Below, in pieces: positions 902 to 42,087 of a stretch of 64,000 bases of DNA. Origin of the DNA: a virus; the IMG/VR virus record IMGVR_UViG_3300028920_000004, positions 31,765-95,764 of that record, one strand, 5' to 3'. The position numbers and the translations under genes were made by a program. The notes beneath the pieces are model-generated. The model worked only from the letters and a program-made list of their open reading frames with translations. It was not told where the DNA came from and did not search any database. How positions within the stretch are numbered: position 1 is the first letter of the stretch; each line of letters opens with the position of its first letter.

Positions 902-1640
902 AATAATCACCTTTTTTTAAAGCTTTACATTTAATAGTTTTTTTTATTATTTCTTTTCTTAATCTTTTTTGATTATATTTAGAATTGGACAATCGTTTAA
1001 AAAATTCTTCATAACTTATATTAGGAAACAAAGTTAAATTACTATCTCCTACCACTATAATCTTACATTTTTCTTCATTCTGAAAATATCCAAAATCTAT
1101 CATTTGTTTATTAGGACTATTATAATAGGCATCTTTGCCTATTCCTCTATGATTAATTTCTCCTTGATAATAATGAGTTAAATTCCTATTAAATTTCTTT
1201 TTATTTTTATTCTTTTTTAATTTGCCATAATCATACCCTAATAAATAAATATTGCCTTTATCTATCAAATAAATAGCTAAAGAAAGTGTAAAAACTCCTG
1301 CCAAATTTTTTCTATATACTCCATCTCTTAAATCTCTATTATAATGACCACTAGCATACAATCTTAAAGTATTTGGATAAGGAACTTCATCTTTACTTCT
1401 ATATGTTCCAATTAATAAAGGCAAAGAATCAATTTTATCATATTCGTGTTCATAAAATCCTTGATTGCTTTGTTTTGTTGGGTTATAATCTACATAAGAA
1501 GTAAAAGTAGAATCAAAATGTTTATAAGCATAATTTATAGTAATAACAAATTTATCTTTAATCTTATCTTTTAATCCTTGGCTTAATCCATCTTTAATAG
1601 AATAACCCCCTCCAATTATAATTACTTCATTGGGTATCAT
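858..1640 (-). CDS. Maf/DUF115-like (sialyltransferase-like Rossmann) putative glycosyltransferase
   Basis: N-terminal VIIIGGGYS...ITINYAY and later IYLLGYD...HYY motifs; adjacent to kdsA. Confidence 0.55.
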   Translation of the reverse strand: MIPNEVIIIGGGYSIKDGLSQGLKDKIKDKFVITINYAYKHFDSTFTSYVDYNPTKQSNQGFYEHEYDKIDSLPLLIGTYRSKDEVPYPNTLRLYASGHYNRDLRDGVYRKNLAGVFTLSLAIYLIDKGNIYLLGYDYGKLKKNKNKKKFNRNLTHYYQGEINHRGIGKDAYYNSPNKQMIDFGYFQNEEKCKIIVVGDSNLTLFPNISYEEFFKRLSNSKYNQKRLRKEIIKKTIKCKALKKGDYFKQFLDHHNNIDYK

Positions 1641-2419
1641 ATTTTACTCCAAGCTTCACTTATGATTTTTATAATATTTTCCATATCATCTAAAGGTAAT
1701 TGCGTAGCACTATCAGATATTGCTTTATCTGGTTCGGGATGAACTTCAATAAATATTCCGTCAACATATCCAGTAGCTATTGCTCCTTTTATCATAGGAA
1801 TTACAAATTCTCTATTTCCTCCTGATTTTCCTCCTTTAGATGGAATTTGTTGGCTATGTGTAGCATCGAAAATAATAGGATAATTTCCAAATTTTTTCAT
1901 AATCATAAAAGACCTAAAATCTACTATAAGGTTATTATATCCAAAACAAGTACCCCTTTCCGTTATCATAATATTCTTATTTCCAGTAGCTTCTACCTTC
2001 TCTATGACATATTTTATATCCCAAGGAGAAAGAAATTGACCCTTTTTTATGTTGACTTTTCGAGCATATCTTCCAATAGTGTGAATTAAGTCTGTTTGTC
2101 GGCACAAAAAGGCTGGAATTTGGACAATATCAGCTATTAGAGCTACTTTTTTGGCCTCTTCGACTGTATGGGTATCTGTTAAAATCTTAATGCCTTGTGC
2201 CTTGATTCTGCTTAAAATTCCTAATCCAGTTTCTAATCCTACTCCTCTAAGTGAATTATTAGAGGTTCTATTAGCTTTATCATAGGAAGCTTTAAATATG
2301 AACTCTATATTATCATATTTATCGGTAATTTCTTTAAGCTTTTCTGCGGTTTTTCGTGTGGTGGTTTCATCTTCGATGGCACAATTACCAGCAATTAGAA
2401 TAAGTTTTTTATTTTTCAT
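1637..2419 (-). CDS. kdsA: 3-deoxy-D-manno-octulosonate 8-phosphate (KDO8P) synthase
   Basis: IAGNCAIE, FKASYDKANRTS, QIPAFLCRQTDL, NIKKGQFL, ERG, FDATHS, FIEVHPEPDKAISD motifs. Confidence 0.97.
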   Translation of the reverse strand: MKNKKLILIAGNCAIEDETTTRKTAEKLKEITDKYDNIEFIFKASYDKANRTSNNSLRGVGLETGLGILSRIKAQGIKILTDTHTVEEAKKVALIADIVQIPAFLCRQTDLIHTIGRYARKVNIKKGQFLSPWDIKYVIEKVEATGNKNIMITERGTCFGYNNLIVDFRSFMIMKKFGNYPIIFDATHSQQIPSKGGKSGGNREFVIPMIKGAIATGYVDGIFIEVHPEPDKAISDSATQLPLDDMENIIKIISEAWSKI

Positions 2420-5944: not shown

Positions 5945-6523
5945 TTACTCCTTATATCCATATTTTATTGCCATTCCTCTTATCATATCTGTAAAAACTG
6001 GACTAATTTTATATAAATCTTCCCAAATTAATTTTCTATGGATTCTCATATTAGCCCTACTTACTATTGGTCTTTTTTTATTTTTTATTCCTAATTCTTT
6101 GCACCATTTATTCCATACTTTAGGAAGTTCTTCTATCTTATATCTCCAAGAAGCTTTAGATTCTATAACCAAATTCCAACAATACCATGACCGCATACAA
6201 TTATAAATACTTTGATTTCTATGTTTTAAAGGGTCATCAAAAGGCACATATTTATTTATATATTCAAAACTTTGATTCCAAAGAGTAGTAGAAGAAGCAA
6301 TAACATTTAAAGGATGTCTTACTTGATGAATTATTTTATCAAAATTGCATTTAATAATATTCTCAGGGGAAGGTTTAGGAAACTCTCCATCCACACAATG
6401 CTTCCAAGAAACTGTATATTTATGCCCACTTCTTTCAAACATTGAATCTTCTCCTAAAGCTCTAAGAAGTTTATAAGTATACATAGTGGCTGACCTAGGA
6501 TGTCCTGTAATAAGATATTTCAT
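5945..6523 (-). CDS. Sulfotransferase-fold protein
   Basis: 5'-PSB loop ITGHPRSATMY and 3'-PB motif HQVRHPLNVIAS. Confidence 0.75.
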   Translation of the reverse strand: MKYLITGHPRSATMYTYKLLRALGEDSMFERSGHKYTVSWKHCVDGEFPKPSPENIIKCNFDKIIHQVRHPLNVIASSTTLWNQSFEYINKYVPFDDPLKHRNQSIYNCMRSWYCWNLVIESKASWRYKIEELPKVWNKWCKELGIKNKKRPIVSRANMRIHRKLIWEDLYKISPVFTDMIRGMAIKYGYKE

Positions 6524-6957
6524 TATTTCCCTTCCTTGTTTATTTTCATTATACGTTCCACTTCTTCAATTAATTCTTCTGCACTTCTATAATTATGTTT
6601 ATAATGAAAATTAATAGCTTTATCATCAAATATAATATCAAAATAAGGTTTAAATCTACTATCACATAAATTAGGGTCTCTTGGAGGTTGTCTATTTATA
6701 GCATGATATTTAAAATTATTATCTTTTAACCATTTTTTTAATTTAGGAGTACACATCCTACCAGTAAAAAGACCTATCCAATATCCTTTATCATAATAAT
6801 GCTTCATAACATTTCTTATAGAAGCTACAGGACTTCCTAATTTATCAAACTCCCAAGGTCTAGTATAAGTAGCTATAACAGAATCAAAGTCAAACATTAG
6901 ATAGCCTTTATATTGTAACATTTTATTCCTCCAAATAGGCTTCCCATTTAGTTCCAA
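6523..6957 (-). CDS. HAD-superfamily hydrolase (capless); true start may be M13 at about 6921
   Basis: FDFDSVI motif I, FTGR motif II, KP..DIIFDDKA motifs III/IV. Confidence 0.75.
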   Translation of the reverse strand: MELNGKPIWRNKMLQYKGYLMFDFDSVIATYTRPWEFDKLGSPVASIRNVMKHYYDKGYWIGLFTGRMCTPKLKKWLKDNNFKYHAINRQPPRDPNLCDSRFKPYFDIIFDDKAINFHYKHNYRSAEELIEEVERIMKINKEGK

Positions 6958-7594
6958 TTAATTTTTTCTTGATATAATTATAATTAATTATTAGTTTTTC
7001 TAAAGATTCTTTATTTTGTTTTTTAGTTACTGGTTTTAAATTTCTAACTTTAACTCCTAAAAATTTTTGTATCTTTTTTAATTCTTTGCTTAAATCTTTA
7101 CATAAATCTTCGTAATAAACTGTAATTATAGGATTATCTTTGAAATAATTATCTCCCCATTCTTCATTATTCTTTATTCCATTAATACGTTGAGCTAAAT
7201 CTATATAATCTACTTTTATCATTTTTTTGTTAAGAGAGGTTCTTTTTCTACCTCTTATTAATCTCCACCAACCAGTTTTACACGCAATAAGATGAGATAC
7301 TACTGTTCTTAATTTATTTTGTCTTTTAAGATGTATAACTGAAATATTTTTACTTTTGCACCATTTCCAAAAATCTGCATTTGCATGGTTATAAAATATT
7401 TTAACACCTGTTACTTTATAACGTAAATTTCCCCATATTCTTTTTTTCTCAGAAGCTATAGTTCTATTTCGTCTTTTTAATTTTTTATGGTCAAAGGTTT
7501 CATTATAACACCTTATATCAGAATGTTTATTTAAAGCTGATTGTATTATAGTAGAACCTGTTCTTTCTCTTGCTAATATAATAAATTTCTTCAT
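6923..7594 (-). CDS. Stf0-like sulfotransferase
   Basis: FIILARERTGST, HLKRQNKLRTVVS, VYYEDL, TKKQ..I.NY. Confidence 0.85.
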   Translation of the reverse strand: MKKFIILARERTGSTIIQSALNKHSDIRCYNETFDHKKLKRRNRTIASEKKRIWGNLRYKVTGVKIFYNHANADFWKWCKSKNISVIHLKRQNKLRTVVSHLIACKTGWWRLIRGRKRTSLNKKMIKVDYIDLAQRINGIKNNEEWGDNYFKDNPIITVYYEDLCKDLSKELKKIQKFLGVKVRNLKPVTKKQNKESLEKLIINYNYIKKKLIGTKWEAYLEE

Positions 7595-8769
7595 TATTTA
7601 TCCCTTTTTATTATAGTTAGAACATCTTCATATCCTTGTTTTAATAAATAATCTACTACAGGAAAAGATACTAATACCTCTAAATGGTTCTTATTAAAAA
7701 TTTTAGTATTTTCTGGCATATTTTTATATGAAATATTTTCTCCTATTTTTTCTTTAGAATATTTTGGATTATCAACTGCTACTTCTAAACGAGGGGTTTC
7801 TAAATCTCCATATACCACCCATCTATGACAAGTTTCTCCTAATAAGCAAATATATTTATTATATTTTTGTAACTCTTTAATCAACATTAAATTCTTTTTT
7901 GTGTAAACTGCTTTTTGAATAGTATCATCTTTTGAGGTTTCTATTTCAATTTTAAAATTTTTAGATTTAAGTTCTCTGAATTTATGCTCTGATACTTTAT
8001 GTAAATCTTTTAAAGTTTTTAACCCCATTTTTTCAAGATAAATTTTCCAGCTATCTCTTTTATTATCTGTTCTGGTTTTGGCATATTTACTAGTATCATC
8101 TTTCATTTGATGATTAACTACTACTGAGGGCACATAAGTAACTTTCCATTTAGTTTTCTTTAATCTAAAAAAGAAATCATTATGCTCAACCATTTTTAAC
8201 CTTTCATCCCACATTATATCCTCAAATATTTCTCTTTTGGCTAAAAAGAAATTTAAAGCTAATTGAGAATAATAATATTTAATATATGGATATTCTTTCG
8301 TAGTTTTCCATTCCCGACTTTCTTTATCTATTAAATAAAATTGATGATTAATATTATCTAGGTACATATCATAAGTATGAATATCTCTATTATTAACCCT
8401 ACCTGCTGATATGCCTATATATTTATCTTCATTTAAAACTTGTTTAAGAGTATTCAAATTTGTCTGTTCATAAAAATCAAAATCATTATCTATTATCAAT
8501 ATATAAGGTTCTGTTGATTGTTTGATTAAAAAATTACGAGCAAAAGACAATCCACAATTAAAAGGTAGATTATAAATCTTATGACCTTCTTTTTCTAATT
8601 CTTTAAAAAATCCCATTTCTCTAATATTAAATTTGTCTTGATTACCGACATAAAATCTTATTGTTGTAGGATAATATCTACGAATAGATTTTATTTCTTC
8701 TATGGTTTTATTTATCCTAGTAAAAGAAGGTATTATAACTGCTATATCTGGAATTTTCTTATAATACAT
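7594..8769 (-). CDS. Glycosyltransferase family 2 with C-terminal extension
   Basis: IIPSFTR, PFNCGLSFARNFL, DXD (IIDND), WDERLKMVEHND. Confidence 0.85.
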   Translation of the reverse strand: MYYKKIPDIAVIIPSFTRINKTIEEIKSIRRYYPTTIRFYVGNQDKFNIREMGFFKELEKEGHKIYNLPFNCGLSFARNFLIKQSTEPYILIIDNDFDFYEQTNLNTLKQVLNEDKYIGISAGRVNNRDIHTYDMYLDNINHQFYLIDKESREWKTTKEYPYIKYYYSQLALNFFLAKREIFEDIMWDERLKMVEHNDFFFRLKKTKWKVTYVPSVVVNHQMKDDTSKYAKTRTDNKRDSWKIYLEKMGLKTLKDLHKVSEHKFRELKSKNFKIEIETSKDDTIQKAVYTKKNLMLIKELQKYNKYICLLGETCHRWVVYGDLETPRLEVAVDNPKYSKEKIGENISYKNMPENTKIFNKNHLEVLVSFPVVDYLLKQGYEDVLTIIKRDK

Positions 8770-9806
8770 TAAATTTCCTTTATTATTATTCTATCTTCAT
8801 AAGGATGTTGTAAAACTATTCTCTTAATATCTGTAAATAAATTCCATTTTTTATGTTTTACATTTTTCAAAATACATTCGCTATAGAAATTATATTTTAA
8901 ATAATATAAAAATCTTTTAACTTTGTTCATATCAGGATATTTAGTAAACATATTTATTATAGCTTCTATATCATATATAGATGATACTTTTTGATTTATA
9001 TCTTTGAAATTATAAAAAGCTTCTCCTACTATTACAACTGGTTTTTTCCACATCATAGCTTGTAAACCAATTCCAGAATTAATGGTCAATATTAAATCAG
9101 AATATTCTATCATTGATTTATAATGAAAATTATCTACAATTCTCAAATTTTTAGTTTCTTTGTTAATATGATATTTATCTTCTTTTTCTATTGGATGATT
9201 CTTTACTAAAAATAACCAAGTAGGATATTCTTGTGCCAATTTCTTAATCAATATATTAAAATTAGTAGTATTTTCAATCCAATTACTCCATAAAAGAGTA
9301 ACAGTATCATCATGAACTTGTAAAGGAACAAAAATAATTCTATTATATTTATTTAGATTTATATTTAACATATCACAAAAAAGCCCAAAAGAAGGTCTAT
9401 TATTTTTTTGAGTTTCTAATGAAGTATTGTCTTTTTTAAAATTATCAATATATTGATTTATTTTTTCTTTTTGAACTTCTGTTAAAAGATGATTCCATCT
9501 ACTTTCATCATAAGAAGAACTATCTACCAAAAATCCATTTTTATCCATAAATACAGTATTAGGCAAAGCCCCTCTTTCTATAATATAGACTGGATGATTA
9601 ATTTTTCTAAGATATTCATAAAGTTCAAATTTCCATTTATTTCTGTCAGTAACTAAATATCCATAAGGATTCCATAGAAGAACAGGATTTTCTGGAGAAA
9701 TATTATCACCTGCTCTAAGACTTTTTTTAGAGATATTTAAATGTTTTCTAAGCAATTTTACACAAGGATGATTAAAATCTGGAGTTAAAAATTTAAAAGT
9801 ATTCAT
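8769..9806 (-). CDS. Capsule polysaccharide biosynthesis protein, KpsS/KpsC-like (GT107-type beta-Kdo transferase candidate)
   Basis: IIERG, FVPLQVHDDT, VKNHP, TINSGIGLQA..KPVVIVGEAFY motifs. Confidence 0.8.
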   Translation of the reverse strand: MNTFKFLTPDFNHPCVKLLRKHLNISKKSLRAGDNISPENPVLLWNPYGYLVTDRNKWKFELYEYLRKINHPVYIIERGALPNTVFMDKNGFLVDSSSYDESRWNHLLTEVQKEKINQYIDNFKKDNTSLETQKNNRPSFGLFCDMLNINLNKYNRIIFVPLQVHDDTVTLLWSNWIENTTNFNILIKKLAQEYPTWLFLVKNHPIEKEDKYHINKETKNLRIVDNFHYKSMIEYSDLILTINSGIGLQAMMWKKPVVIVGEAFYNFKDINQKVSSIYDIEAIINMFTKYPDMNKVKRFLYYLKYNFYSECILKNVKHKKWNLFTDIKRIVLQHPYEDRIIIKEI

Positions 9807-10459
9807 TATATTTCCTTTGGATAATTAAAAGTCTTAAAATCTTCTTTATACCAAGCTATGATAGTTGATTTTTTCATTTCGTTATTATACAATTCTTTAT
9901 AATTTTTGTTTTTAGATTCTCTAATTTTAGGTAATTCTTTTATAATTATATTTGCATTTCTAAACGTCAATCTTAATCCATAATTAAAATCTAATTCAAA
10001 CTTAATAATTTTATTTATTTTAAATTCTTCTACAATATGACTTTGAATATAAGAATGAGCATCTTTATTGTAAATTCCTCTCGGCAAATAAGTATGTAAA
10101 AATTTTAAAAAACTAATACCTTCTTCCCAATCTTTCCTATATATTCCATAATTGGCTATTGTAGGAACTTTTTTTCCTCTAAATTTTTCTATTTTTTCAG
10201 GAGTTGACTGAATTTTATCAAGATATAAAGAAGCAATTCTGGTATAGGGATTTCTCACAACTATAAATTTTTTATAATCTGAAGGAATATCTTTAGCATT
10301 TATTAATAAATGCCTGGTAGAATCATGAATGTTATTTTCTTTTATTTCTAATCCCATACTATTTGCTATAATAAATTTAATAGTAGAACTACCAGCTTTT
10401 CCATTTACAATATATGCTAATTTACTATTAGGTATTAATATTGCTTTTATAGGTAACAT
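9806..10459 (-). CDS. Sulfotransferase family 2 protein
   Basis: VNGKAGSSTIK, VRNPYTRIASLY, H..Q, YKEDFKTFNY. Confidence 0.85.
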   Translation of the reverse strand: MLPIKAILIPNSKLAYIVNGKAGSSTIKFIIANSMGLEIKENNIHDSTRHLLINAKDIPSDYKKFIVVRNPYTRIASLYLDKIQSTPEKIEKFRGKKVPTIANYGIYRKDWEEGISFLKFLHTYLPRGIYNKDAHSYIQSHIVEEFKINKIIKFELDFNYGLRLTFRNANIIIKELPKIRESKNKNYKELYNNEMKKSTIIAWYKEDFKTFNYPKEI

Positions 10460-10869
10460 TATATGATTTTTCCTTTAAAATAAATAGATTCTAAATTTTT
10501 ATCTGAAGAAATTATTTTTCGTCTTAAAAGTTCTTCCTTTAATTTTAGCATCCCATAATTTTTTCCTATTTTTTTAATTTTCTTTATTTTAGTTGTTTTT
10601 CCTATTTTTGTATTTACATTATCTACTTTAAAAGATAATTGAGTATTTTTATTTATTCTATTTTTAAGTGTTTTAAGCTTATGTTTTAATAATAAAATTC
10701 GAACTTCATAATTATCAAAAGAAGGAATTTCAAAATAATTAACATATAAATTTTTTATTGGCTTTCTAAATATGTCAATACTTTCTACATAACCTATAAC
10801 CTTTCTTCTATAAATCAATTCGCATATTCTTATATCTTCATCTATATCTGCTCTTTTATATCTTCTCAT
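10459..10869 (-). CDS. Hypothetical basic protein
   Basis: ORF abutting neighbours within the operon. Confidence 0.5.
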   Translation of the reverse strand: MRRYKRADIDEDIRICELIYRRKVIGYVESIDIFRKPIKNLYVNYFEIPSFDNYEVRILLLKHKLKTLKNRINKNTQLSFKVDNVNTKIGKTTKIKKIKKIGKNYGMLKLKEELLRRKIISSDKNLESIYFKGKII

Positions 10870-10870
10870 T

Positions 10871-11650
10871 TTAATTCCTTTCTTTTAATTGTCCATTATG
10901 ATTTACTATATAAAATTTATTTACTTTCCAATTTATCTTAAAATATTTTAAATGTCTATTTCTTTTTCTTAATTTAGCATATTCAGAAGAAGGTAATTTA
11001 TGATTGTGTAATATTTTCATATCTGGACAATGACATATTCTTTGTTCATGAAGTTTACACTTTAAGAAATAATCAGCATGTTCGCCTCCAGAAATTTTTG
11101 TATCTTCATTCCAAGAATAAAGCAAAGCTTTAGTAGCTATCCAAAAATTAGGAACATAATCACAATAATAAAATTTAGTTTCTGGAGTTTCTTCCCATTT
11201 TTTACCTACATATTCTATGGGTATTCTTATAAATAAATTATATTCTGGTTCATATATAAATATACCTTCCCATTCTTGAACTTTTCCATTAGGTCTTGTA
11301 ATTTTACCACCTACTATATCTGCTACCCCTCTTTTTAATAAAGATTTTCCTATTTTTAAACTATCATCTTGAAATATAAAATCATCTTCCACAATAACAA
11401 TATATTTTTGCTTAACTTTATCCAAAAGAAAATTTCTAGCATATGGAAGACCGCAATCAAAAGGAACTTTATAATAATTTACAAAATTTCTTTCATATAA
11501 TTCAGTATCTATCTCTTTATTTTGGTCAGCGACATATATATGAATATCAGGATAAAATTTACTAATACTTTCTATACATTCCTTTATTGCTTTAGGTCTT
11601 AATATTGTAGTTAAAGTTATTGCAGTATCTTTCATTTTAATCCTCCTCAA
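10871..11650 (-). CDS. Glycosyltransferase family 2
   Basis: TTILRP, VADQ, PFDCGLPYARNFL, IVEDD, WNEDTKISGGEHAD. Confidence 0.85.
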   Translation of the reverse strand: MRRIKMKDTAITLTTILRPKAIKECIESISKFYPDIHIYVADQNKEIDTELYERNFVNYYKVPFDCGLPYARNFLLDKVKQKYIVIVEDDFIFQDDSLKIGKSLLKRGVADIVGGKITRPNGKVQEWEGIFIYEPEYNLFIRIPIEYVGKKWEETPETKFYYCDYVPNFWIATKALLYSWNEDTKISGGEHADYFLKCKLHEQRICHCPDMKILHNHKLPSSEYAKLRKRNRHLKYFKINWKVNKFYIVNHNGQLKERN

Positions 11651-12293
11651 ACCAATTCCAAGATTTCATATCTCCTTTAAAATTAGGTTTAAAATAAGGG
11701 TCATCTGGAAAATAATCTTTAAGGGTTTCTATATCATACCATCCAGTTGTTAATTTAGGTAATTTTTTATTTTTTCTTTTCTTTACAAAACCTACGATAT
11801 TATATCTTATTCTTTTAAATCTGCCATTTCTTACATCAAACCCTGTTAATATTAAATTATACATCAAACTTCCAATATTCCAACCTGTAGAAATATGTCC
11901 TCCTACTATATTGTTTTTATATGGAGGTACTATCACAAAAAATATACCATTATCATTTAAAAGATTATATATTTTATTCAAAAATATTCCAGTATCTTGT
12001 ATATGTTCCATAACATGAGAAGCGAGAATGGCATCAAATTTTTTATTAAATTTGTAAGTCATAAAATCGCCTTTAATAAAATGATAGTTAGGGTGGTTAT
12101 AATTAAAATGCTTAGTAATATCTATAGAATAAAGTTCTTTATTATTTTTTGTAAAAAATTTAGTAATATCTGTATGTTTACCAGTGCCTATATCTAAAAT
12201 ACTGTTAAAATTATAAGTAAGAATTTTATTAAAAATTTCTATCATATCTCTTTTTTTTATATTCTTTATATTTGACATCATAATTCCTTCCAT
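11637..12293 (-). CDS. Class I SAM-dependent methyltransferase
   Basis: ILDIGTG, FDAILASHVMEH, LNDNGIFFVIVP. Confidence 0.85.
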   Translation of the reverse strand: MEGIMMSNIKNIKKRDMIEIFNKILTYNFNSILDIGTGKHTDITKFFTKNNKELYSIDITKHFNYNHPNYHFIKGDFMTYKFNKKFDAILASHVMEHIQDTGIFLNKIYNLLNDNGIFFVIVPPYKNNIVGGHISTGWNIGSLMYNLILTGFDVRNGRFKRIRYNIVGFVKKRKNKKLPKLTTGWYDIETLKDYFPDDPYFKPNFKGDMKSWNWFEED

Positions 12294-12391
12294 ATTAATC
12301 CACTTCCATACTTCTGCAAATAATTAAAGAATTCTATTTATATAATTTCCATTTGATAAAGATTTTTTAATACTTACCCAATAATTTTTCA

Positions 12392-12919
12392 TCATATTAT
12401 CTTATTATCCTCTAAATATTTTATTACTTTATTTGTAGATTCTTCTATAGTTTCTGTTTCAGTATCACATATAATTTCAGGATTTTTAGGGGCTTCATAT
12501 GGGTCATCAAATCCAGTAAAGCCTTTAATTTTACCTTTTAATGCTTTTTTCCACATTCCTTTAACATCTCTTTTTATACATTCTTTTACAGAGGCTTTGA
12601 CAAAAACTTCGACAAAATTTGTAACATTATTTCTTATATTCTCTCTTGTTTTTGCATAAGGACTTACAAATGAAGCAATTACTACTACTCCATTTCTTGA
12701 TAAAAGTTTAGATACAAAATTTATTCTATTTATATTTTTATCTCTATCCTCTTTAGAAAATCCCAAATCATTACTTAATTTTCCTTTTCTTACTATATCC
12801 CCATCTAATCGTTCTACTCTTTTTCCTCTGTTATATAGTTCTTTAGCCAATTCATCTGCTATTGAACTTTTTCCTGAACAAGGAATTCCAGTAAACCAAA
12901 CTACACATCCTTTTTTCAT
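12392..12919 (-). CDS. cysC: Adenylyl-sulfate (APS) kinase
   Basis: WFTGIPCSGKS, LDGDIVR, LGFSKEDR, SFVSPY, RDVKG, FTGFDDPYEAP. Confidence 0.97.
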   Translation of the reverse strand: MKKGCVVWFTGIPCSGKSSIADELAKELYNRGKRVERLDGDIVRKGKLSNDLGFSKEDRDKNINRINFVSKLLSRNGVVVIASFVSPYAKTRENIRNNVTNFVEVFVKASVKECIKRDVKGMWKKALKGKIKGFTGFDDPYEAPKNPEIICDTETETIEESTNKVIKYLEDNKII

Positions 12920-12935
12920 AAAAGGTCTCCTTAAA

Positions 12936-13883
12936 TTATATTTTATTTATTATAGTAGCAATTAGATATACAATAGAAAATCCCAAAATTGGAGACATTA
13001 TCCAAGTTAAAAAACATTTTTTAATAGTTTTTATTCCTAATTTCTTTATACCTTTTCCTCTATTAGCTACCCCAAATCCAAAAACTGCAAAAGAATTTAA
13101 TTGTACTAAAGATTGAGGAAGACCTATCAAAGATGCACTAATTAATAAACTACCTGTTACTAAACTTATAATACCTGCCGATATTAAATCTAATTGTGTA
13201 ACTTTTTTTCCTATAGACTGTAAATTTCCTTTGCCTAAAACAAATCCTCCTATTCCAAAAAAAGGAGCAAGTATAAAAGTCGCTAATTTACTTGTCATAA
13301 TTTGTGCTCCTGCAAAAACACCTGAAGCATTAGCTACATTATTAGACCCTATGCTAAAAGCAGTATAACAACTTGTAAGTATATCCCAAAATTTAATAGA
13401 ATTATGTTTAAAGTCTTTTATTTTTGGATAAATAAATTTACCACATAAAAAAGTAATTAAAAAAGCAGAAAAAGGTAACACTATCCATAAAGGAATCATT
13501 CTTTGAAAAATTTCCCATTTAACTGCATTATGATAAGCTCCATACCCTACAATACTAAAAACTGTAATTTGACTTGTAGAGGCTGGTATTTTAAATAAAT
13601 TAGCTAAAAATAAAGCAATAGTAGTTCCAGTAAAAATGATTAATGCACTTTTTATGTTCAATAATTCTGGATTTATTAATCCTTTACTGATTACTTTCAC
13701 TACTCTAAATCCTAATAAATAAGCCCCTAATAATACAAATATTGCAAATAAAATAGAAGCTTTTTTTCTTGATATTATCCCTCCTCCATATTCTGCTGAA
13801 AAAGTAGGAGCAATACCAGACCCTCCCATATTAACTGCAAATAAAATTCCTAAAAATATTAAACCTATTACTAATAAATTCAT
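12936..13883 (-). CDS. PiT-family inorganic anion transporter (phosphate, or sulfate as in CysP)
   Basis: Multi-pass membrane protein; repeats NMGGSGIAP / IGSNNVANA and PASTSQ / PQSLVQ. Confidence 0.85.
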   Translation of the reverse strand: MNLLVIGLIFLGILFAVNMGGSGIAPTFSAEYGGGIISRKKASILFAIFVLLGAYLLGFRVVKVISKGLINPELLNIKSALIIFTGTTIALFLANLFKIPASTSQITVFSIVGYGAYHNAVKWEIFQRMIPLWIVLPFSAFLITFLCGKFIYPKIKDFKHNSIKFWDILTSCYTAFSIGSNNVANASGVFAGAQIMTSKLATFILAPFFGIGGFVLGKGNLQSIGKKVTQLDLISAGIISLVTGSLLISASLIGLPQSLVQLNSFAVFGFGVANRGKGIKKLGIKTIKKCFLTWIMSPILGFSIVYLIATIINKI

Positions 13884-13900
13884 AAATTCTCCATTATAAT

Positions 13901-14539
13901 TTAAAGTTTTTTTATTTTCGGAAAAATTTCTAAAGCCAATTTAAGAATCATATATGGACTATAATGATTCATGTTTAATAAATATTTTTTTATATTTTGC
14001 TTATCCATTAATATAGTAGGATTAAGAAACTCAGTATTTAAATTATTATGACAATATTCATCTAAAGTTTGTATCATTTTTGTTCTTGAAGGTTTATTGT
14101 ATATATTATGATTACTCACAAACAATATAGGTTTATTATCTAACAATTTATGAATTTTTTTTAATTTGGCTACATAATTATCAGAATAAACTTTTTTATA
14201 TTTAGTATGTTTATAAAATTTAGGAAAAGGAGATAAATAATAACCATGTTCGCACAAATAATTAGTAACTCCGCTAATCTCTATTATATATTTATCTATT
14301 TTATTAATAGGAATAGTTATTTTTTTTGTTTTAATACATTCTAAATTTCCACTCCGTTTATTTATAATATCCTTATGATTAGGTCTAATACCTTTTAAAA
14401 TTTCTATAGCTTGAATAATTTGTTCTAACGTATGCAAATGCGGTAAAATCATATATAATTCCATAGAAGTATCTTTACATCGTCTATATACTCTGGTTGG
14501 ATTTTTTACTCTGCAACTTCCAATAGTTAATATTTTCAT
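13901..14539 (-). CDS. Hypothetical protein, possibly SGNH-like (glycan-modifying)
   Basis: N-terminal IGSCR and C-terminal NHY, resembling SGNH blocks I and V. Confidence 0.4.
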   Translation of the reverse strand: MKILTIGSCRVKNPTRVYRRCKDTSMELYMILPHLHTLEQIIQAIEILKGIRPNHKDIINKRSGNLECIKTKKITIPINKIDKYIIEISGVTNYLCEHGYYLSPFPKFYKHTKYKKVYSDNYVAKLKKIHKLLDNKPILFVSNHNIYNKPSRTKMIQTLDEYCHNNLNTEFLNPTILMDKQNIKKYLLNMNHYSPYMILKLALEIFPKIKKL

Positions 14540-15180
14540 TAATTCTTTTCATCCTCTATATTAAAAGGTATTACTAAATTTGCTAAAGATTTGCTCTGGC
14601 ATACACTATTATATTCTCTTTCCACTACATATTTCCTAAATTTATTTTCGGGATTTTCTTTTCCTCTATTAGCTCTAAATTTAAAAGTATCTTCAGGATT
14701 TCCATCTAGATAAACCCCATAATCAAATAAATTACCATATAAAGCATATAACCCTTCTACTATTAAAAGGTCAATATTTTTAGAGTTACAAATAGAAAAT
14801 TCAATACTATCTATATACATATGTATTCTTTGAATATATAATTTCTTTTCATTATTTTTAAAATTCTTTAATACTTTATTAAATTTCTCCCACATTATTT
14901 CTTCTTTACCTATTATATCAGTTTCTTTTCTAACTTTATTTCTTATATGCCAATTAGTCTTATAATAATCATCTAGATGTAATACCTTATTTTTAATATT
15001 ATATTTTTTATATAACTGTTCTTGAATAACATAAGCACATTCTGTTTTTCCAGTTCCGCTTACTCCTGTAATAGCTAATATAAATTTACTGTCTTTTTTA
15101 TATTTTTTAAGAACTTCCGCTAAAATAATTTCTGCTTTTTTTTCATGCAAAGGTAATATATTTACTCTATCTCCAATCAT
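14539..15180 (-). CDS. P-loop kinase, uridine kinase/PRK-like
   Basis: AITGVSGTGKT, HLDDYY, IVEGLYAL. Confidence 0.8.
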   Translation of the reverse strand: MIGDRVNILPLHEKKAEIILAEVLKKYKKDSKFILAITGVSGTGKTECAYVIQEQLYKKYNIKNKVLHLDDYYKTNWHIRNKVRKETDIIGKEEIMWEKFNKVLKNFKNNEKKLYIQRIHMYIDSIEFSICNSKNIDLLIVEGLYALYGNLFDYGVYLDGNPEDTFKFRANRGKENPENKFRKYVVEREYNSVCQSKSLANLVIPFNIEDEKN

Positions 15181-15194
15181 CTTATCCTCACTTT

Positions 15195-15350
15195 TTAGAC
15201 AAATTCATATTTTCCATTACCTACATATTTTCTTTCATATTTTTTTTGACAAAAAGGACAATTAAATTTACCTTCACCTATCATTTTAACCACAAATATA
15301 TGTCCACATTCACAATTTATAGTTATAGTATTATATCTTTTATTTTCCAT
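15195..15350 (-). CDS. Small zinc-ribbon protein (51 aa, below the ORF-track cutoff)
   Basis: MENKRYNTITINCECGH...NCPFCQK... Confidence 0.6.
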   Translation of the reverse strand: MENKRYNTITINCECGHIFVVKMIGEGKFNCPFCQKKYERKYVGNGKYEFV

Positions 15351-15702
15351 TATTTTTTCTCCTTATTTCGGTAGCACTAATTGATTCTGTTTCTTTATCC
15401 AATTTAATTTCATTTATGCCCCAACCAACTTTTCTTCCATGGCAAACTTCTTTAATATCTGGAAGAGTAACATATTTAACCCTTCCGCTTTTAATTTCTT
15501 CCCTAAATTCTTTTCTTATCATTTCAACTCTTTCTCTAACAGTATAAGGATTTTTATCATCTATTTTAGTATCTCTTATTCCTATACAAACTTTTCCATT
15601 TTTATTTAAAACAGTTCTTATTAATTGTATATGTCCAGCGTGAAGCGGTTGCCATCTCCCAATAAATAAACTATATTCTCCTGTAAAATTATTATTAGAC
15701 AT
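15340..15702 (-). CDS. Minimal HxGH-superfamily nucleotidyltransferase (cytidylyltransferase-like)
   Basis: IGRWQPLHAGH, NPYT..ER, ISATEIR. Confidence 0.85.
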   Translation of the reverse strand: MSNNNFTGEYSLFIGRWQPLHAGHIQLIRTVLNKNGKVCIGIRDTKIDDKNPYTVRERVEMIRKEFREEIKSGRVKYVTLPDIKEVCHGRKVGWGINEIKLDKETESISATEIRRKNNGK

Positions 15703-15704
15703 AA

Positions 15705-15920
15705 TTAAAATCCTTTCTTAGTTCCTTTTCTTAAATCTAATATTATAGTTGAAAAATAATAATAGTCTTCTTCAAAATGTTTTTTAGCATGTTCGATTGA
15801 AAAATTTCTTAATTCTTTAAGTGCTAATAATTGTGCTTCTTCTGTAGCCTCATATTTTATGATAAATACTTCTCCACAACCTGTACAAGTTCTAATTACT
15901 AAATTCATATATTTTTCCAT
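15705..15920 (-). CDS. Small hypothetical protein (CxxC)
   Basis: CTGCG; in operon. Confidence 0.5.
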   Translation of the reverse strand: MEKYMNLVIRTCTGCGEVFIIKYEATEEAQLLALKELRNFSIEHAKKHFEEDYYYFSTIILDLRKGTKKGF

Positions 15921-35089: not shown

Positions 35090-36157
35090 TTAGAGTTTAG
35101 ATTTGAGCCTTTTATCTATAAGTAATTGAGTAATCAAATCTACCGCAGATTCTACATCCTTTTCATTTATTATCTCTACTGGAGAGTGCATATTTCTTAA
35201 AGGTATTCCTATATCTAAAACTCTTACCCCATCATTAGTATGAGAAACCATACCTGCATTTGTGCCATAACTATTAGTAGCTATTATTTGATAAGGAATT
35301 TTCTTCTTATCGGCTATAGAAAGTAATAAATTATTTACTGGTCTATATATATTTATACCTTTCATTATAGCACTTCCTTCTCCTAATATACATCTTCCAG
35401 AATCTCTTTCGTCCACATTAGGATAATCTGTAGCATGAATAACATCTACTCCTATAAATAAATCGGGGGTTTCTCTTCTAACCACTTCTCTTGAACCGAA
35501 ACATCCAATTTCTTCTTGTGCTGAAAATATAAATTTTATAGTAGGTAGATTTCTATGTCTGGACGCTATTAATTTTTGTATAACTTTTATCAATGTAAAA
35601 CAACCAATCTTATCATCAAATCCAGAACCTACAAAATTTCCTTCATAAAGTTCTTCAAAACTAGGTTTTAGAATTATAGGGTCTCCTATAGATAACATTT
35701 CTAAAACTTGTTTTCTATTTCTAATTCCTATATCTAAGACTAAATCTGAAGTCTTGCTTGGAAAATCTTCATCTCCTTCCATAAGGTGAATAGGTTTAGC
35801 GTCTACTACACCATTAATTATCCCATTTTCAGTCAATACTAAAGCATTTCTAGCCCTTATTAATTGAATATCATGCCCTCCAATTTGATTAACCGATATA
35901 AATCCGTATTTATTTACATTGGTTACTAAAAATCCTAATTGGTCAGCATGAGCATCTACTATTACAGTTTTTGAAGGTTTTTTTAAGGCTGGAATAGAAA
36001 TTACCAAATTGTTATGGTAATCTATTTCCAAAGTAACAGTAGAAGGTAATATTTTTACTAATTTGTCTCTAATATGATATACCAAAGTTTGCTCAAATCC
36101 ACTCGGAGAAGGTATCTCTATCAAAGATTTTAATAGCTTGGTATCTACTTTATTCAT
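35090..36157 (-). CDS. M42-family (TET-like) aminopeptidase
   Basis: PSPSGFE, DAHADQLG, FDDKIG, QEEIG, DV, PLRNMHSPVE. Confidence 0.9.
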   Translation of the reverse strand: MNKVDTKLLKSLIEIPSPSGFEQTLVYHIRDKLVKILPSTVTLEIDYHNNLVISIPALKKPSKTVIVDAHADQLGFLVTNVNKYGFISVNQIGGHDIQLIRARNALVLTENGIINGVVDAKPIHLMEGDEDFPSKTSDLVLDIGIRNRKQVLEMLSIGDPIILKPSFEELYEGNFVGSGFDDKIGCFTLIKVIQKLIASRHRNLPTIKFIFSAQEEIGCFGSREVVRRETPDLFIGVDVIHATDYPNVDERDSGRCILGEGSAIMKGINIYRPVNNLLLSIADKKKIPYQIIATNSYGTNAGMVSHTNDGVRVLDIGIPLRNMHSPVEIINEKDVESAVDLITQLLIDKRLKSKL

Positions 36158-39927: not shown

Positions 39928-42087
39928 CTATCCTTTTATTACTCCAAGAGGTTCAAGCTCTACTAAAATTTTTACTAAATCTTTTTGATTTTCCATTACT
40001 ATGTCTATATCTTTATACGCAGAAGACGCTTCATCGAGGTCTTTCTTATTTCTTATAGAATGTATAATTCCTTTATTATCTAATCTTTTCTTTTCCTCTT
40101 CAAGATTTAAATTTTCTCTTGCTTTTGTTCTACTCATAGTTCTCCCTGCTCCATGAGAACAAGACATAAAACTTTCAGGATTTCCCAATCCTTCAATTAT
40201 ATAACTTTTAGTTCCTTGAGAACCTGGAATTATTCCTATCTGTCCTTTTCTGGCAGAAGTAGCACCTTTTCTATGTACCATTACATTATGTCCGAAGTGA
40301 TTTTCCATAGTTGCATAATTATGTGCTATGTTTATCATTTCATCAAAACTATCTATAAATTCATTATAACAAAGTCCATTTACATTATTTTTTGTAATTA
40401 TCTCCAAAAAAGAGCCTTTTATTCTCTCCATCATCAACTTCCTATTAGCTAAAGCAAAATCTACACAATAATTCATTTCTCTCAAATAGTCTTGTCCTTC
40501 TTTACTATCTAAAGGAAGAAAAGCCAAATCCCATTTAGGGTCTATTTTTGTATGCCATTTCTTATTAAGTTCTTTCGCTATTTCGTTGTAATGTCTTGCT
40601 ACTTTATATCCTAAATTTCTACTTCCGCTATGAAGCATTATCCAAATATGTCCATCAGAACCTTTCTGTATCTCTATGAAATGATTTCCTCCTCCAAGAG
40701 TGCCTAATTGTTTACGAGCAGAATCAAATTCTTTGCCTACAATAGAATTTCTAAAATTTAAATTAACAGTTGGCATAAGTATACCATCTTGTTTTCTCTT
40801 GTGATGACTAAATCCTACTGGAACTACGCTTCTAATTCCACCTTTATATTCTTTCGAACCTCCGAAAATTTTCTTTATTTGTTCTGGTGTAATATCTGTT
40901 AAGGACGTTTTTACAGCACACATACCACAATTTCCTGTAACAAATATTTTTCCATTTCTTCTTGCAATAAAATATCCAGTTTCAACAACAAAACAATATT
41001 TTTTAGCATTAGGGATTTTTATTTCTTTTGGTTTAGTAAATCCAACATATTTATTGTTAGTTTGATATACATTATACCAATCCTTCCAATTTTCGTTTTT
41101 GCTTGAATATTGATGTATATTTGCACGAATACCATTTATTGCACAAATATATTGAATAACATCTGCATTTGTTTTATTTGTTGTAGAATATACTTTATGA
41201 TTTCTTTTTTCATCAATACAACCATCCCAATGTAAATATTCATCAAAAACTATTTTTGCTTGATGTTGATTACATTTATATAAATTAATTAAACTTTTTT
41301 CACACTTCCAATCTAATGTAAAAATTATAGATACTATTCCATCCGAATTTTTATATTCAACAAAATCAACATTAGCATTTTTTAATAAAAATTTACTTCG
41401 ATTTATTTTTCTTTGTTTTTTCAAATGTAATTCAACAGAAGAACTATCTTTATTAGATTGTCTTATACAACCATCTGCTGAAACCATAATCATAATAGCT
41501 AATTGATTATCAGTCAAATCAATTCCCTTTTCATTAGTTGGAAAAGTAGTTCTAACAGAATAATAATCTCGTTTTTTTATTTTTAATAATTTTTCTTTAA
41601 AATCTCTACAAAAATAAGTATTATTTTTTTTGTTTTTACCATATCCTTCATATACTAACATCCTGTGTTCATCGCTTAAAACTTGGTCTAATCCATATTT
41701 ACTTTTATATTCTGTAAATTGTTCACAAGGTTTTACAATATACAACAAAGGGTTACTAAAAAAAGAAGTTTGATTATAATTATCCCACACCAACACCTTT
41801 TGGTTATTATATTTATCTATTGTAATCCATCCAACTTCAGTTAATATTTCTGTATCTTTATCAACAGCTCCAATATCTACCCCTACTGCATTTGGTATTA
41901 CAACTCCTTTAGTAGCTAAAACTCCACCAATAGGCATACCATAACCTTGATGGCTATCGGGCATTATTGCTATATGCTTAAAAGTAAAAGGAAGATTAGC
42001 TAAATTTTTAGCCTGTTCTAATGCTCCTTCTTCAATATTATTGAGCCATAATTTTATAGGTTTATTTTCACTATTTATTACTTTCAT
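39928..42087 (-). CDS. rtcB: RtcB RNA ligase interrupted by an intein
   Basis: MPDSHQGYGMPIGG, VGVDIG/CGM, GTLGGGNHFIE, HSGSR, HN, HRKGA, PGSQG, SHGAGR, DEASSAYK. Confidence 0.95.
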   Translation of the reverse strand: MKVINSENKPIKLWLNNIEEGALEQAKNLANLPFTFKHIAIMPDSHQGYGMPIGGVLATKGVVIPNAVGVDIGAVDKDTEILTEVGWITIDKYNNQKVLVWDNYNQTSFFSNPLLYIVKPCEQFTEYKSKYGLDQVLSDEHRMLVYEGYGKNKKNNTYFCRDFKEKLLKIKKRDYYSVRTTFPTNEKGIDLTDNQLAIMIMVSADGCIRQSNKDSSSVELHLKKQRKINRSKFLLKNANVDFVEYKNSDGIVSIIFTLDWKCEKSLINLYKCNQHQAKIVFDEYLHWDGCIDEKRNHKVYSTTNKTNADVIQYICAINGIRANIHQYSSKNENWKDWYNVYQTNNKYVGFTKPKEIKIPNAKKYCFVVETGYFIARRNGKIFVTGNCGMCAVKTSLTDITPEQIKKIFGGSKEYKGGIRSVVPVGFSHHKRKQDGILMPTVNLNFRNSIVGKEFDSARKQLGTLGGGNHFIEIQKGSDGHIWIMLHSGSRNLGYKVARHYNEIAKELNKKWHTKIDPKWDLAFLPLDSKEGQDYLREMNYCVDFALANRKLMMERIKGSFLEIITKNNVNGLCYNEFIDSFDEMINIAHNYATMENHFGHNVMVHRKGATSARKGQIGIIPGSQGTKSYIIEGLGNPESFMSCSHGAGRTMSRTKARENLNLEEEKKRLDNKGIIHSIRNKKDLDEASSAYKDIDIVMENQKDLVKILVELEPLGVIKG
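40930..41868 (-). mobile_element. 313-aa intein with LAGLIDADG homing endonuclease; Ala1 start (class-3-like)
   Basis: Inserted in VGVDIG|CGM; begins AVDKDTEILT, ends KYCFVVETGYFIARRNGKIFVTGN; LAGLIDADG blocks IMVSADGCI and YLHWDGCI. Confidence 0.92.

What the first reader, a model, noticed from the sequence alone, without database searches (positions are those of the whole stretch)
5945..15702. Apparently self-contained phage sulfation pathway: anion permease, mini HxGH adenylyltransferase, CysC and three sulfotransferases
Seen: one co-oriented operon holds a PiT-family permease (12936-13883) directly upstream of cysC (12392-12919), a 120-aa HxGH nucleotidyltransferase (15340-15702), and three sulfotransferases of different types (5945, Stf0-like 6923, family-2 9806) interleaved with glycosyltransferases. 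Known: CysC converts APS to PAPS, the sulfotransferase donor; the Bacillus sulfate permease CysP is a PiT-family protein; Sat-type ATP sulfurylases use an HxGH nucleotidyltransferase fold. Inference: no Sat or CysDN is in the window, so the small HAGH protein may be a minimal ATP sulfurylase. That would give a phage an end-to-end route from external sulfate to sulfated glycans, for virion decoration or host-surface remodelling (receptor masking).
Basis: partly seen in the sequence, partly recalled or inferred. Interest (0 to 1): 0.9.

Follow-up and report, generated by a model that had tools for sequence, protein, structure and literature searches.

The report
Phage sulfation operon with mini ATP-sulfurylase candidate
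A complete 96-kb tailed phage carries one operon with a sulfate-type permease, an APS kinase, three sulfotransferases, glycan-building enzymes and a 120-residue enzyme that comparative genomics (no assay yet) points to as a third, very small kind of ATP sulfurylase.

Summary
All the genes exist at the stated coordinates on the minus strand of a complete 95,764-bp phage with terminal repeats. The whole genome has no Sat, CysD, CysQ or family-I pyrophosphatase.

- **The 120-aa HxGH protein** is nearest to archaeal NMNAT and PPAT but scores far below NMNAT cut-offs. It belongs to a distinct family of about 105-125 aa.
- **Link to APS kinase:** about 90 of 94 longer homologues are fused to APS kinase, in both domain orders. 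In 161 fetched loci the family is fused to, or within 3 kb of, an APS kinase gene in 124.
- **Neighbours:** sulfotransferase is the commonest neighbouring family in viral, CPR/archaeal and other bacterial loci.
- **No alternative enzyme:** about 30 Patescibacteria genomes with the family lack Sat and CysD. One marine alphaproteobacterial MAG has the operon cysI-cysH-DUF2061-APSK-HxGH and also lacks both.
- **The permease** belongs to a PiT clade whose neighbours are cysH, cysteine synthase and sulfite reductase, so it is CysP-type.
- **The third sulfotransferase** is confirmed by fold and motifs.

This scan has reached the same reading of this family on other DNA at least eight times. New here are the unfused arrangement, the sulfate permease and a HAD phosphatase. 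I found no paper describing the family.

The parts
15340..15702 (-). 120-aa mini HxGH adenylyltransferase (P0001); candidate non-canonical ATP sulfurylase (sulfate adenylyltransferase)
   Evidence: PF01467 E 8.6e-10. NMNAT models score far below cut-off. Family fused or adjacent to APS kinase. AF2 pLDDT 86. Structural matches: NMNAT Z 10.2, Sat 1v47 Z 7.8.
12392..12919 (-). CysC, full-length canonical APS kinase
   Evidence: PF01583 E 1.4e-58; TIGR00455 212.7 bits against cut-off 138.7.
12936..13883 (-). CysP-type PiT-family permease, probable sulfate importer
   Evidence: PF01384 E 1.1e-36; NF053884 E 1.2e-63. Neighbours of homologues are cysH, cysteine synthase, sulfite reductase and siroheme genes. 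L182, 70% identical, has CysC immediately downstream.
9806..10459 (-). Sulfotransferase, family 2
   Evidence: PF03567 E 3.5e-11, 44.1 bits against cut-off 22.
6923..7594 (-). Sulfotransferase, Stf0 / Sulfotransfer_3-like
   Evidence: PF13469 E 5e-12, PF00685 E 1e-9, PF09037 E 3e-9, all above cut-off.
5945..6523 (-). Compact divergent sulfotransferase (P0215)
   Evidence: Weak PF13469 hit, E 0.0027. Family of 1113 representatives with PSB/PB-like motifs. 16 of 60 members hit Sulfotransfer_3. AF2 pLDDT 96.7; every listed Foldseek PDB match (to rank 50) is a PAPS sulfotransferase.
6523..6957 (-). Capless HAD phosphatase (P0336, DxDxV motif FDFDSV); candidate PAP 3'-phosphatase or pyrophosphatase helper
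   Evidence: phrog_1238 E 1e-17; phrog_415 (polynucleotide kinase) E 5e-5. Homologue fused N-terminally to HxGH in P0121/P0122 and L004, and adjacent to HxGH in L006 and L166.
13901..14539 (-). TviD_N-like (SGNH-like, O-acetyltransferase-type) protein; glycan modification, not part of PAPS synthesis
   Evidence: No Pfam, NCBIfam or PDB sequence hit. ESM Atlas score 0.95, TM 0.82 to TviD_N clusters (a lead only).
14539..15180 (-). PRK/uridine-kinase-family P-loop kinase, probably a sugar or nucleoside kinase
   Evidence: PF00485 E 6e-7. Atlas structural look-alikes include the AgaSK sucrose-kinase domain. Not found next to HxGH in any other locus.
11637..12293 (-). SAM-dependent methyltransferase
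   Evidence: Methyltransf_23 E 9e-12.
10871..11650 (-). GT2 glycosyltransferase
   Evidence: PF00535 E 5e-11.
8769..9806 (-). KpsS/KpsC-like capsule polysaccharide biosynthesis protein
   Evidence: PF05159 E 1e-15.
7594..8769 (-). GT2 glycosyltransferase
   Evidence: PF00535 E 3.6e-6.
1637..2419 (-). KdsA-type (DAHP_synth_1 family) enzyme at the distal end of the same gene string
   Evidence: PF00793 E 2.5e-67.

Best explanation
The operon is a phage-borne module for making a sulfated, probably Kdo-containing, glycan. It supplies its own activated sulfate.

Proposed route:
1. The CysP-type PiT permease brings sulfate into the infected cell.
2. The 120-aa HxGH enzyme uses the conserved adenylyl-transfer chemistry of its superfamily (invariant R16, H21, H24, R114) to join AMP from ATP to sulfate, giving APS and PPi. 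Family-specific invariant residues (R43, G89-R90, G93) replace the NMN-binding parts of NMNAT. They could bind the small anion, but I could not test this.
3. CysC phosphorylates APS to PAPS, which pulls the unfavourable first step forward.
4. Three sulfotransferases put sulfate on a glycan built by the GT2 enzymes, the KpsS/C-like protein, the methyltransferase and the TviD_N-like protein.
5. The HAD phosphatase may clear PAP or PPi.

Shown here: family memberships, fusions, gene neighbourhoods and the absence of Sat/CysD. Inferred: every substrate, including sulfate for the HxGH enzyme and for the permease, and the final target (host surface or virion).
For: - **Fusion:** about 90 of 94 longer homologues of P0001 carry an APS kinase domain, in both orders.
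- **Adjacency:** of 161 loci holding the family, 53 are fused, 59 have the kinase within 300 bp on the same strand and 12 within 3 kb. Conversely, 13 of 19 viral loci seeded with cysC carry the family.
- **Neighbours:** unbiased Pfam tallies put Sulfotransfer_3/1 first in viral loci, in CPR/archaeal loci and in other bacteria, where NIR_SIR, PAPS_reduct and TauE also appear. 23 of 50 dereplicated viral records carry a Sulfotransfer_3 match.
- **No known alternative:** Sat occurs in 3 of 50 and full CysD in 5 of 50 carrier genomes. About 30 Patescibacteria have neither.
- **Complementary distribution:** in 301 sampled Patescibacteria, 10 have Sat (9 with it beside or fused to an APS kinase). 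Two have this family beside an APS kinase. None has both.
- **Assimilatory operon:** L137 encodes sulfite reductase, CysH, DUF2061, APSK and HxGH in a 1.2-Mb genome with no Sat or CysD.
- **Catalytic residues:** invariant in the family. They align with Mth NMNAT R11, H19 and R136, which are the residues mutated in PDB entries 1m8f, 1m8k and 1m8j.
- **Fold:** the Sat catalytic domain is a clear structural relative (1v47 Z 7.8 over 111 residues).
- **Permease clade:** sits in sulfate-assimilation operons.
- **Phage genome:** lacks Sat, CysD, CysQ and PPase.
Against: - No enzyme of this family has been assayed.
- The nearest sequence and structure relatives are NMNAT and PPAT, not Sat.
- In this window the HxGH gene is 2.4 kb from cysC, not adjacent.
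- Some complete phages carry cysC with no HxGH, Sat or CysD, so host APS can suffice.
- Larger carrier genomes (Bradyrhizobium-like, Hodarchaeota) also have CysD or Sat.
- Many carrier genomes are MAGs, where absence is weak evidence.
- The permease scores below the CysP equivalog cut-off (215 against 400 bits).
Confidence: 0.68

Rival explanations
1. The HxGH protein only assists APS kinase, for example by binding or channelling nucleotides or by regulation. APS comes from the host's own Sat or CysDN. The phage adds just the kinase, the permease and the transferases.
For: Phages with cysC alone exist. The host of this phage is unknown and may make APS. Fusion and adjacency show a functional link, not a specific reaction.
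Against: The catalytic R/HxGH/SxTxxR residues are invariant. Patescibacteria and streamlined alphaproteobacteria that carry the pair have no Sat or CysD. Sat and this family replace each other beside APS kinase.
Confidence: 0.12
2. The pair makes a PAPS-like donor from another small anion. The model is the Campylobacter O-methyl-phosphoramidate route, in which a nucleotidyltransferase and a CysC-like kinase activate phosphoramidate and methyltransferases follow (recalled from memory).
For: A methyltransferase lies directly downstream of cysC. Many fused kinases are a short, lid-less APSK type.
Against: No glutamine-kinase or amidohydrolase-type protein turned up among the operon ORFs scanned with Pfam. 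Sulfotransferases are the commonest neighbours. CysH and sulfite reductase operons hold the pair. The permease clade is sulfate-linked. This CysC passes the APS kinase equivalog cut-off.
Confidence: 0.07
3. It is a trimmed NMN adenylyltransferase for NAD salvage, possibly paired NadR-style with the neighbouring P-loop kinase, and has nothing to do with sulfation.
For: The best sequence and fold matches are archaeal NMNAT and NadM. Phage NadM-type genes are common.
Against: Scores are 46-56 bits against cut-offs of 127-181. Only residues 11-88 align; the segment after strand 3 and the C-terminal domain are missing. The PRK-like kinase accompanies the family in none of 161 other loci. True NMNATs in Patescibacteria match only positions 3-80 of the family profile.
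Confidence: 0.06
4. It is a sugar-phosphate or glycerol-phosphate nucleotidyltransferase (HldC/TagD-like) that feeds the glycan. The HAD phosphatase would act as a GmhB-like partner and the PRK-like kinase as the sugar kinase.
For: The size is similar to TagD. There is a weak hit to a PHROG annotated as heptose kinase/adenylyltransferase (E 5e-4), and the HAD matches a PHROG labelled phosphoheptose isomerase. HAD-HxGH fusions exist in relatives. The operon is full of glycan genes.
Against: HldC (Z 5.6) and TagD (Z 6.5) are more distant than NMNAT and Sat. This reading does not explain the pervasive APS kinase fusions, the cysI-cysH operon or the complementarity with Sat.
Confidence: 0.05

Closest known systems
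Sat-type ATP sulfurylase and Sat-CysC / PAPS synthase fusions (PF01747; T. thermophilus 1v47, Aquifex 2gks, human PAPSS1 1x6v)
   Same: Same proposed reaction and the same partnership with APS kinase, including fusion in both orders. Same superfamily fold with an HxxH motif. VIA Z 7.8, 6.1 and 5.8 respectively.
   Different: No PF01747 or PUA_2 match. The protein is about 110 aa against a catalytic domain of about 200 aa plus extra domains. It is closer to NMNAT and PPAT than to Sat, so it is not a member of the Sat family.
Archaeal/NadM-type NMN adenylyltransferase (TIGR01527, NF002243; PDB 1ej2, 1f9a, 2qjo)
   Same: Best sequence and structure match: E 2e-8, Z 10.2. It shares the GRxQPxHxGH and SxTExR catalytic motifs.
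   Different: Far below family cut-offs. It lacks the segment after strand 3 and the C-terminal domain. It has its own invariant residues R43, G89-R90 and G93. Its genomic partners are APS kinase and sulfotransferases, not NAD salvage genes.
Bacillus subtilis cysH-cysP-sat-cysC operon (CysP, a PiT-family sulfate permease; established knowledge)
   Same: A PiT-family permease sits directly upstream of cysC. The homologue clade lies next to cysH, cysK/M and sulfite reductase genes.
   Different: The score is below the CysP equivalog cut-off (215 against 400 bits). In the phage, sat is replaced by the mini HxGH gene, and the products feed sulfotransferases rather than cysteine synthesis.
APSK-HxGH fusion proteins of cultured phages (Xylella phages Sano, Salvo, Bacata; Stenotrophomonas and Xanthomonas Casjensviridae; phrog_10255 'kinase')
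   Same: Same HxGH family at 38-40% identity, joined to APS kinase.
   Different: Those are single fused proteins with a short kinase. They are annotated only as 'kinase' or 'adenylylsulfate kinase', with no permease. Here the genes are separate, CysC is full length, and a permease and three sulfotransferases are present.

Membership tests
Sat-type ATP sulfurylase (PF01747) | Sequence match to the ATP-sulfurylase domain model | tested here: not met
   The Pfam scan of P0001 returns only PF01467. The whole genome has no PF01747 match.
Sat-type ATP sulfurylase (PF01747) | HxxH motif on a nucleotidyltransferase alpha/beta fold | tested here: met
   HAGH at residues 21-24. VIA Z 7.8, rmsd 3.2, 111 residues aligned to the catalytic domain of 1v47.
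Sat-type ATP sulfurylase (PF01747) | Forms APS from ATP and sulfate | not testable with these tools
   Needs an enzyme assay or complementation.
Archaeal/NadM NMN adenylyltransferase (TIGR01527, NF002243) | Score at or above the curated cut-off | tested here: not met
   45.9 bits against 181.2, and 56 bits against 127.
Archaeal/NadM NMN adenylyltransferase (TIGR01527, NF002243) | Full-length architecture of about 170 aa, including the region after strand 3 and the C-terminal helical domain | tested here: not met
   Only residues 11-88 align to residues 6-84 of 1ej2, and the protein is 120 aa.
Archaeal/NadM NMN adenylyltransferase (TIGR01527, NF002243) | Catalytic Arg, HxGH and SxTxxR residues | tested here: met
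   R16, H21, H24, S109 and R114 are invariant in the 34-sequence family alignment.
Unnamed mini HxGH family partnered with APS kinase (C-terminal half of phrog_10255) | Family motifs SLFIGRWQPLHxGH, IGIRDT, YGRKVGW and ESISATKIR in a protein of about 105-125 aa | tested here: met
   P0001 is 50-81% identical to 188 homologues of similar length and carries all the invariant residues.
Unnamed mini HxGH family partnered with APS kinase (C-terminal half of phrog_10255) | Fused to, or next to, an APS kinase gene | tested here: met
   In the window cysC lies 2.4 kb downstream on the same strand in the same gene string. In the family, 124 of 161 loci are fused or within 3 kb.
APS kinase CysC (TIGR00455 / PF01583) | Score above the curated cut-off over the full length | tested here: met
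   212.7 bits against 138.7; PF01583 positions 1-152 of 152.
CysP-type PiT sulfate permease (NF053884) | Score above the equivalog cut-off | tested here: not met
   215.1 bits against 400, although nearly full length.
CysP-type PiT sulfate permease (NF053884) | Homologues embedded in sulfate-assimilation gene clusters | tested here: met
   Of 104 neighbour ORFs: PAPS_reduct 25, PALP 15, NAD_binding_7 11, NIR_SIR 7. No PhoU-type partner is among the 25 commonest families.
PAPS-dependent sulfotransferases | Family model match, or sulfotransferase fold with 5'-PSB and 3'-PB loops, for each of the three ORFs | tested here: met
   Two ORFs are above Pfam cut-offs. The third is shown by motifs and fold.
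Campylobacter-type phosphoramidate activation pathway | Accompanying glutamine kinase and gamma-glutamyl-phosphoramidate hydrolase | tested here: inconclusive
   No such domains appear among the operon ORFs scanned with Pfam. Two ORFs, 10459-10869 and 858-1640, have no assignment at all.

The most novel reading that the evidence does not exclude
The 105-125-aa HxGH family is a true third class of ATP sulfurylase. It would be widespread in phages, Patescibacteria, DPANN and other archaea, and streamlined marine bacteria. On this reading the phage encodes a complete route from external sulfate (CysP-type permease) through APS and PAPS to a sulfated glycan, with a HAD phosphatase clearing PAP or PPi.
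Probability: 0.6. Interest if true: 0.85.

Novelty: new variant of a known kind. Interest (0 to 1): 0.75.

Why it matters
Only two enzyme types, Sat and CysDN, are known to activate sulfate, the entry step for all sulfate assimilation and sulfation. A third type only about 110 residues long would have several consequences:
- Pathway predictions would change for genomes now scored as unable to activate sulfate, such as CPR bacteria and streamlined marine alphaproteobacteria.
- Viral cysC "auxiliary metabolic genes" would be reinterpreted as parts of complete PAPS synthases.
- It would provide a very compact enzyme for enzymatic PAPS regeneration.

This phage is a good test case. The parts are separate genes, CysC is canonical, and a sulfate-type permease and three sulfotransferases sit in the same operon. 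I found that combination in no other locus I examined.

Tried and rejected
- I obtained gene contexts through the search for related loci and the genome search instead.
- **Permease relatives:** close-pattern and INPHARED searches found no viral relatives.
- **Sulfotransferase detection:** phmmer with the window's sulfotransferases was too insensitive across loci, so I replaced it with Pfam tallies of neighbour ORFs.
- **Patescibacteria sample:** a random sample of 301 genomes held only 2 true family members, so it gave no broad co-occurrence statistic. It did show complementarity with Sat.
- **NadR-like pairing:** rejected, because the PRK-like kinase is unique to this window.
- **Heptose (HldC/GmhB) and phosphoramidate readings:** considered and judged weak; see the rival explanations.
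- **Third sulfotransferase:** BLASTP against the Stf0-like ORF and phmmer against PDB were uninformative. Fold search settled the question.
- **Promoters:** the promoter scan gave no signal above chance in this AT-rich DNA.
- **Literature:** eight searches found no description of this family. Subscription journals are not covered.
- **Not possible:** active-site geometry of the AF2 model could not be examined, because coordinates are not exposed. The host was not identified.

Full report
**Setting**

The window is bases 31765-95764 of a complete 95,764-bp virus record with direct terminal repeats. GC content is 23-30% and nearly all genes lie on the minus strand. The record is a tailed phage:
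- An 1189-aa ORF carries a split tape-measure match.
- The window holds a family-B DNA polymerase, a primase-helicase, an RtcB interrupted by a LAGLIDADG element, and a RuvB-like ATPase.
- Its polymerase has only distant relatives (under 25% identity) among cultured phages.

The host is unknown.

**Observation**

Every ORF in the finding exists as stated.

| Coordinates (minus strand) | Assignment | Evidence |
|---|---|---|
| 12392-12919 | Canonical APS kinase | PF01583 E 1.4e-58; TIGR00455 212.7 bits against cut-off 138.7 |
| 12936-13883 | PHO4/PiT permease | Sole NCBIfam hit is CysP model NF053884, E 1.2e-63, 215 bits, below the 400-bit cut-off |
| 15340-15702 | 120-aa CTP_transf_like protein with HAGH and ISATEIR | |
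| 6923-7594 | Sulfotransferase | Above Pfam cut-offs |
| 9806-10459 | Sulfotransferase | Above Pfam cut-off |
| 5945-6523 | Third sulfotransferase | Sub-threshold by Pfam; see below |

For 5945-6523, its family has 1113 representatives. The family consensus is LITGCxRSGT and HQVRHPLxVIxS. 16 of 60 members hit Sulfotransfer_3. An AF2 model with pLDDT 96.7 matches only PAPS-dependent sulfotransferases in PDB.

GT2 enzymes, a KpsS/C-like protein, a methyltransferase and a KdsA-family enzyme complete the gene string. The scan found no terminator-like site. The apparent gaps around the HxGH gene hold two small zinc-ribbon ORFs. The whole genome lacks Sat, CysD/PAPS_reduct, CysQ-type phosphatase and family-I pyrophosphatase.

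**What the HxGH protein is**

- **By sequence:** it is nearest to archaeal NMNAT and NadM. Scores are only 46-56 bits against cut-offs of 127-181, and only residues 11-88 align.
- **By fold:** an AF2 model (pLDDT 86) is closest to NMNAT (Z 10.2), PPAT (10.2) and NadM (9.8). The ATP sulfurylase catalytic domain follows, with 1v47 at Z 7.8, 2gks at 6.1 and 1j70 at 5.9.
- **Catalytic residues:** the Arg, HxGH and SxTxxR residues are invariant in the family.
- **Family-specific features:** the NMN-side elements are replaced by family-specific invariants R43, G89-R90 and G93.

It is therefore an adenylyltransferase-type enzyme. It is a member of neither the NMNAT family nor the Sat family.

**Comparative evidence**

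- **Family size and fusion:** the protein has 188 homologues of similar length. About 90 of 94 longer homologues are fusions with APS kinase, in both orders.
- **Spread:** the family occurs in 467 IMG/VR contigs and 158 GTDB species genomes. Carriers include Patescibacteria, Saccharibacteria, DPANN and other archaea, alphaproteobacteria including Pelagibacteraceae, and Acidobacteriota.
- **Adjacency:** in the 161 loci fetched, 53 are fused. A further 59 have an APS kinase gene within 300 bp on the same strand, and 12 within 3 kb. Some of the rest have a short kinase that my first search missed.
- **Reciprocal check:** 13 of 19 viral loci seeded with cysC carry the family.
- **Neighbour tallies:** unbiased Pfam tallies of neighbouring ORFs put sulfotransferases first in viral loci, in CPR/archaeal loci and in other bacterial loci. 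In the last group sulfite reductase, PAPS reductase and TauE permeases also appear.
- **Viral records:** 23 of 50 dereplicated viral records hold a Sulfotransfer_3 match.
- **Carrier genomes:** among 50 carriers, Sat is present in 3 and full CysD in 5. About 30 Patescibacteria have neither.
- **Patescibacteria sample:** in an even sample of 301 genomes, 10 have Sat (9 with it beside or fused to an APS kinase). Two have this family beside an APS kinase. None has both.
- **Assimilatory operon:** a 1.2-Mb marine alphaproteobacterial MAG has the operon sulfite reductase, CysH, DUF2061, APS kinase, HxGH, and no Sat or CysD.

Together these results put the family at the step that makes APS.

**The permease**

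Its homologues at 40-46% identity in 33 metagenomic loci have the following neighbours:

| Neighbour family | Count (of 104 ORFs) |
|---|---|
| PAPS reductase | 25 |
| JAB/Mec-type | 17 |
| Cysteine synthase | 15 |
| Rrf2 regulators | 11 |
| Siroheme synthase | 11 |
| Sulfite reductase | 7 |

No PhoU-type phosphate partner appears in the tally. A 70%-identical relative has cysC directly downstream. This supports a CysP-type sulfate permease. None of the other 161 HxGH loci has this permease. A few have TauE-family permeases instead.

**Other operon genes**

- **13901-14539** resembles the TviD N-terminal domain, which is SGNH-like. This is a lead only.
- **14539-15180** is a PRK/uridine-kinase-family kinase with sugar-kinase look-alikes. 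Neither this gene nor the previous one accompanies the family elsewhere. They probably serve glycan synthesis.
- **6523-6957** is a capless HAD phosphatase. Its homologue is fused to the HxGH domain in P0121/P0122 and lies beside it in the closest relatives. Known ATP sulfurylases are sometimes fused to pyrophosphatase to pull the reaction (PMC2275785). The HAD also resembles PHROGs annotated as polynucleotide kinase. A role in removing PPi or PAP is plausible but unproven.

**Limits**

- Nothing has been assayed.
- Some complete phages carry cysC alone.
- Larger carrier genomes also have CysD or Sat.
- MAG absences are soft evidence.
- The purpose of the sulfated glycan cannot be decided from sequence.

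**Prior knowledge**

Cultured Casjensviridae phages of Xylella, Stenotrophomonas and Xanthomonas carry the fused form, annotated only as 'kinase' or 'adenylylsulfate kinase'. PHROGs labels it 'kinase'. Eight literature searches found no description of the family. Earlier AI notes of this scan reached the same reading on at least eight other genomes. I repeated the central tests independently here.

**Verdict**

My confidence in the mechanism is 0.68. I class it as a new variant of a known kind: a known pathway whose first enzyme is replaced by an unrecognised small family.

Noticed in passing
window 15705-15920 (-) and 15195-15350 (-): Two small ORFs of 71 and 51 aa with CxxC-type zinc-ribbon motifs flank the HxGH gene and fill the apparent intergenic gaps. 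The second overlaps the HxGH stop by 11 nt.
   Followed up: no
L004:6427-7182 (also L005, L163, L164; proteins P0121, P0122): In the closest relatives the HAD phosphatase is fused N-terminally to the HxGH domain, directly after cysC. In L006 and L166 the HAD gene lies immediately upstream of HxGH.
   Followed up: partly
alignment A1 (for example P0123, P0125, P0131 against P0159, P0173): Fused APS kinase domains come in two forms. One is full length. The other is short and lacks the usual lid segment (RDxKGxYxxAxxGxIxxFTG), which is replaced by about 8 residues.
   Followed up: no
alignment A7 (permease clade); window 12936-13883: In this PiT clade the second signature is the usual GSNNVANA. 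The first is NMGGSGIAP, with no Asp, and might relate to sulfate rather than phosphate selectivity.
   Followed up: no
L137:5387-5671: A DUF2061 membrane protein sits between cysH and the short APS kinase in the marine alphaproteobacterial operon. Earlier scan notes report the same trio in phages.
   Followed up: no
L162 (Xylella phage Bacata, LR743524.1 29138-29878): Cultured Casjensviridae phages carry the APSK-HxGH fusion next to a COG3236-domain protein, with no annotated sulfotransferase nearby. What the product is used for there is unclear.
   Followed up: partly
window 39928-42087 (-): RtcB RNA ligase is split into two matched stretches by a LAGLIDADG-type insert, probably an intein. 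The tape-measure ORF upstream of the window is also split (G000:C1:22486-24144).
   Followed up: no
G052 and G053 (loci L172, L177): Complete phage records of 190 kb and 49 kb carry cysC. They have no mini HxGH gene within 8 kb of cysC and no Sat or PAPS_reduct match in the record, so a cysC-only strategy also exists.
   Followed up: partly
window 35090-36157 (-): A phage-encoded M42 glutamyl aminopeptidase (E 8e-70), an unusual phage gene.
   Followed up: no
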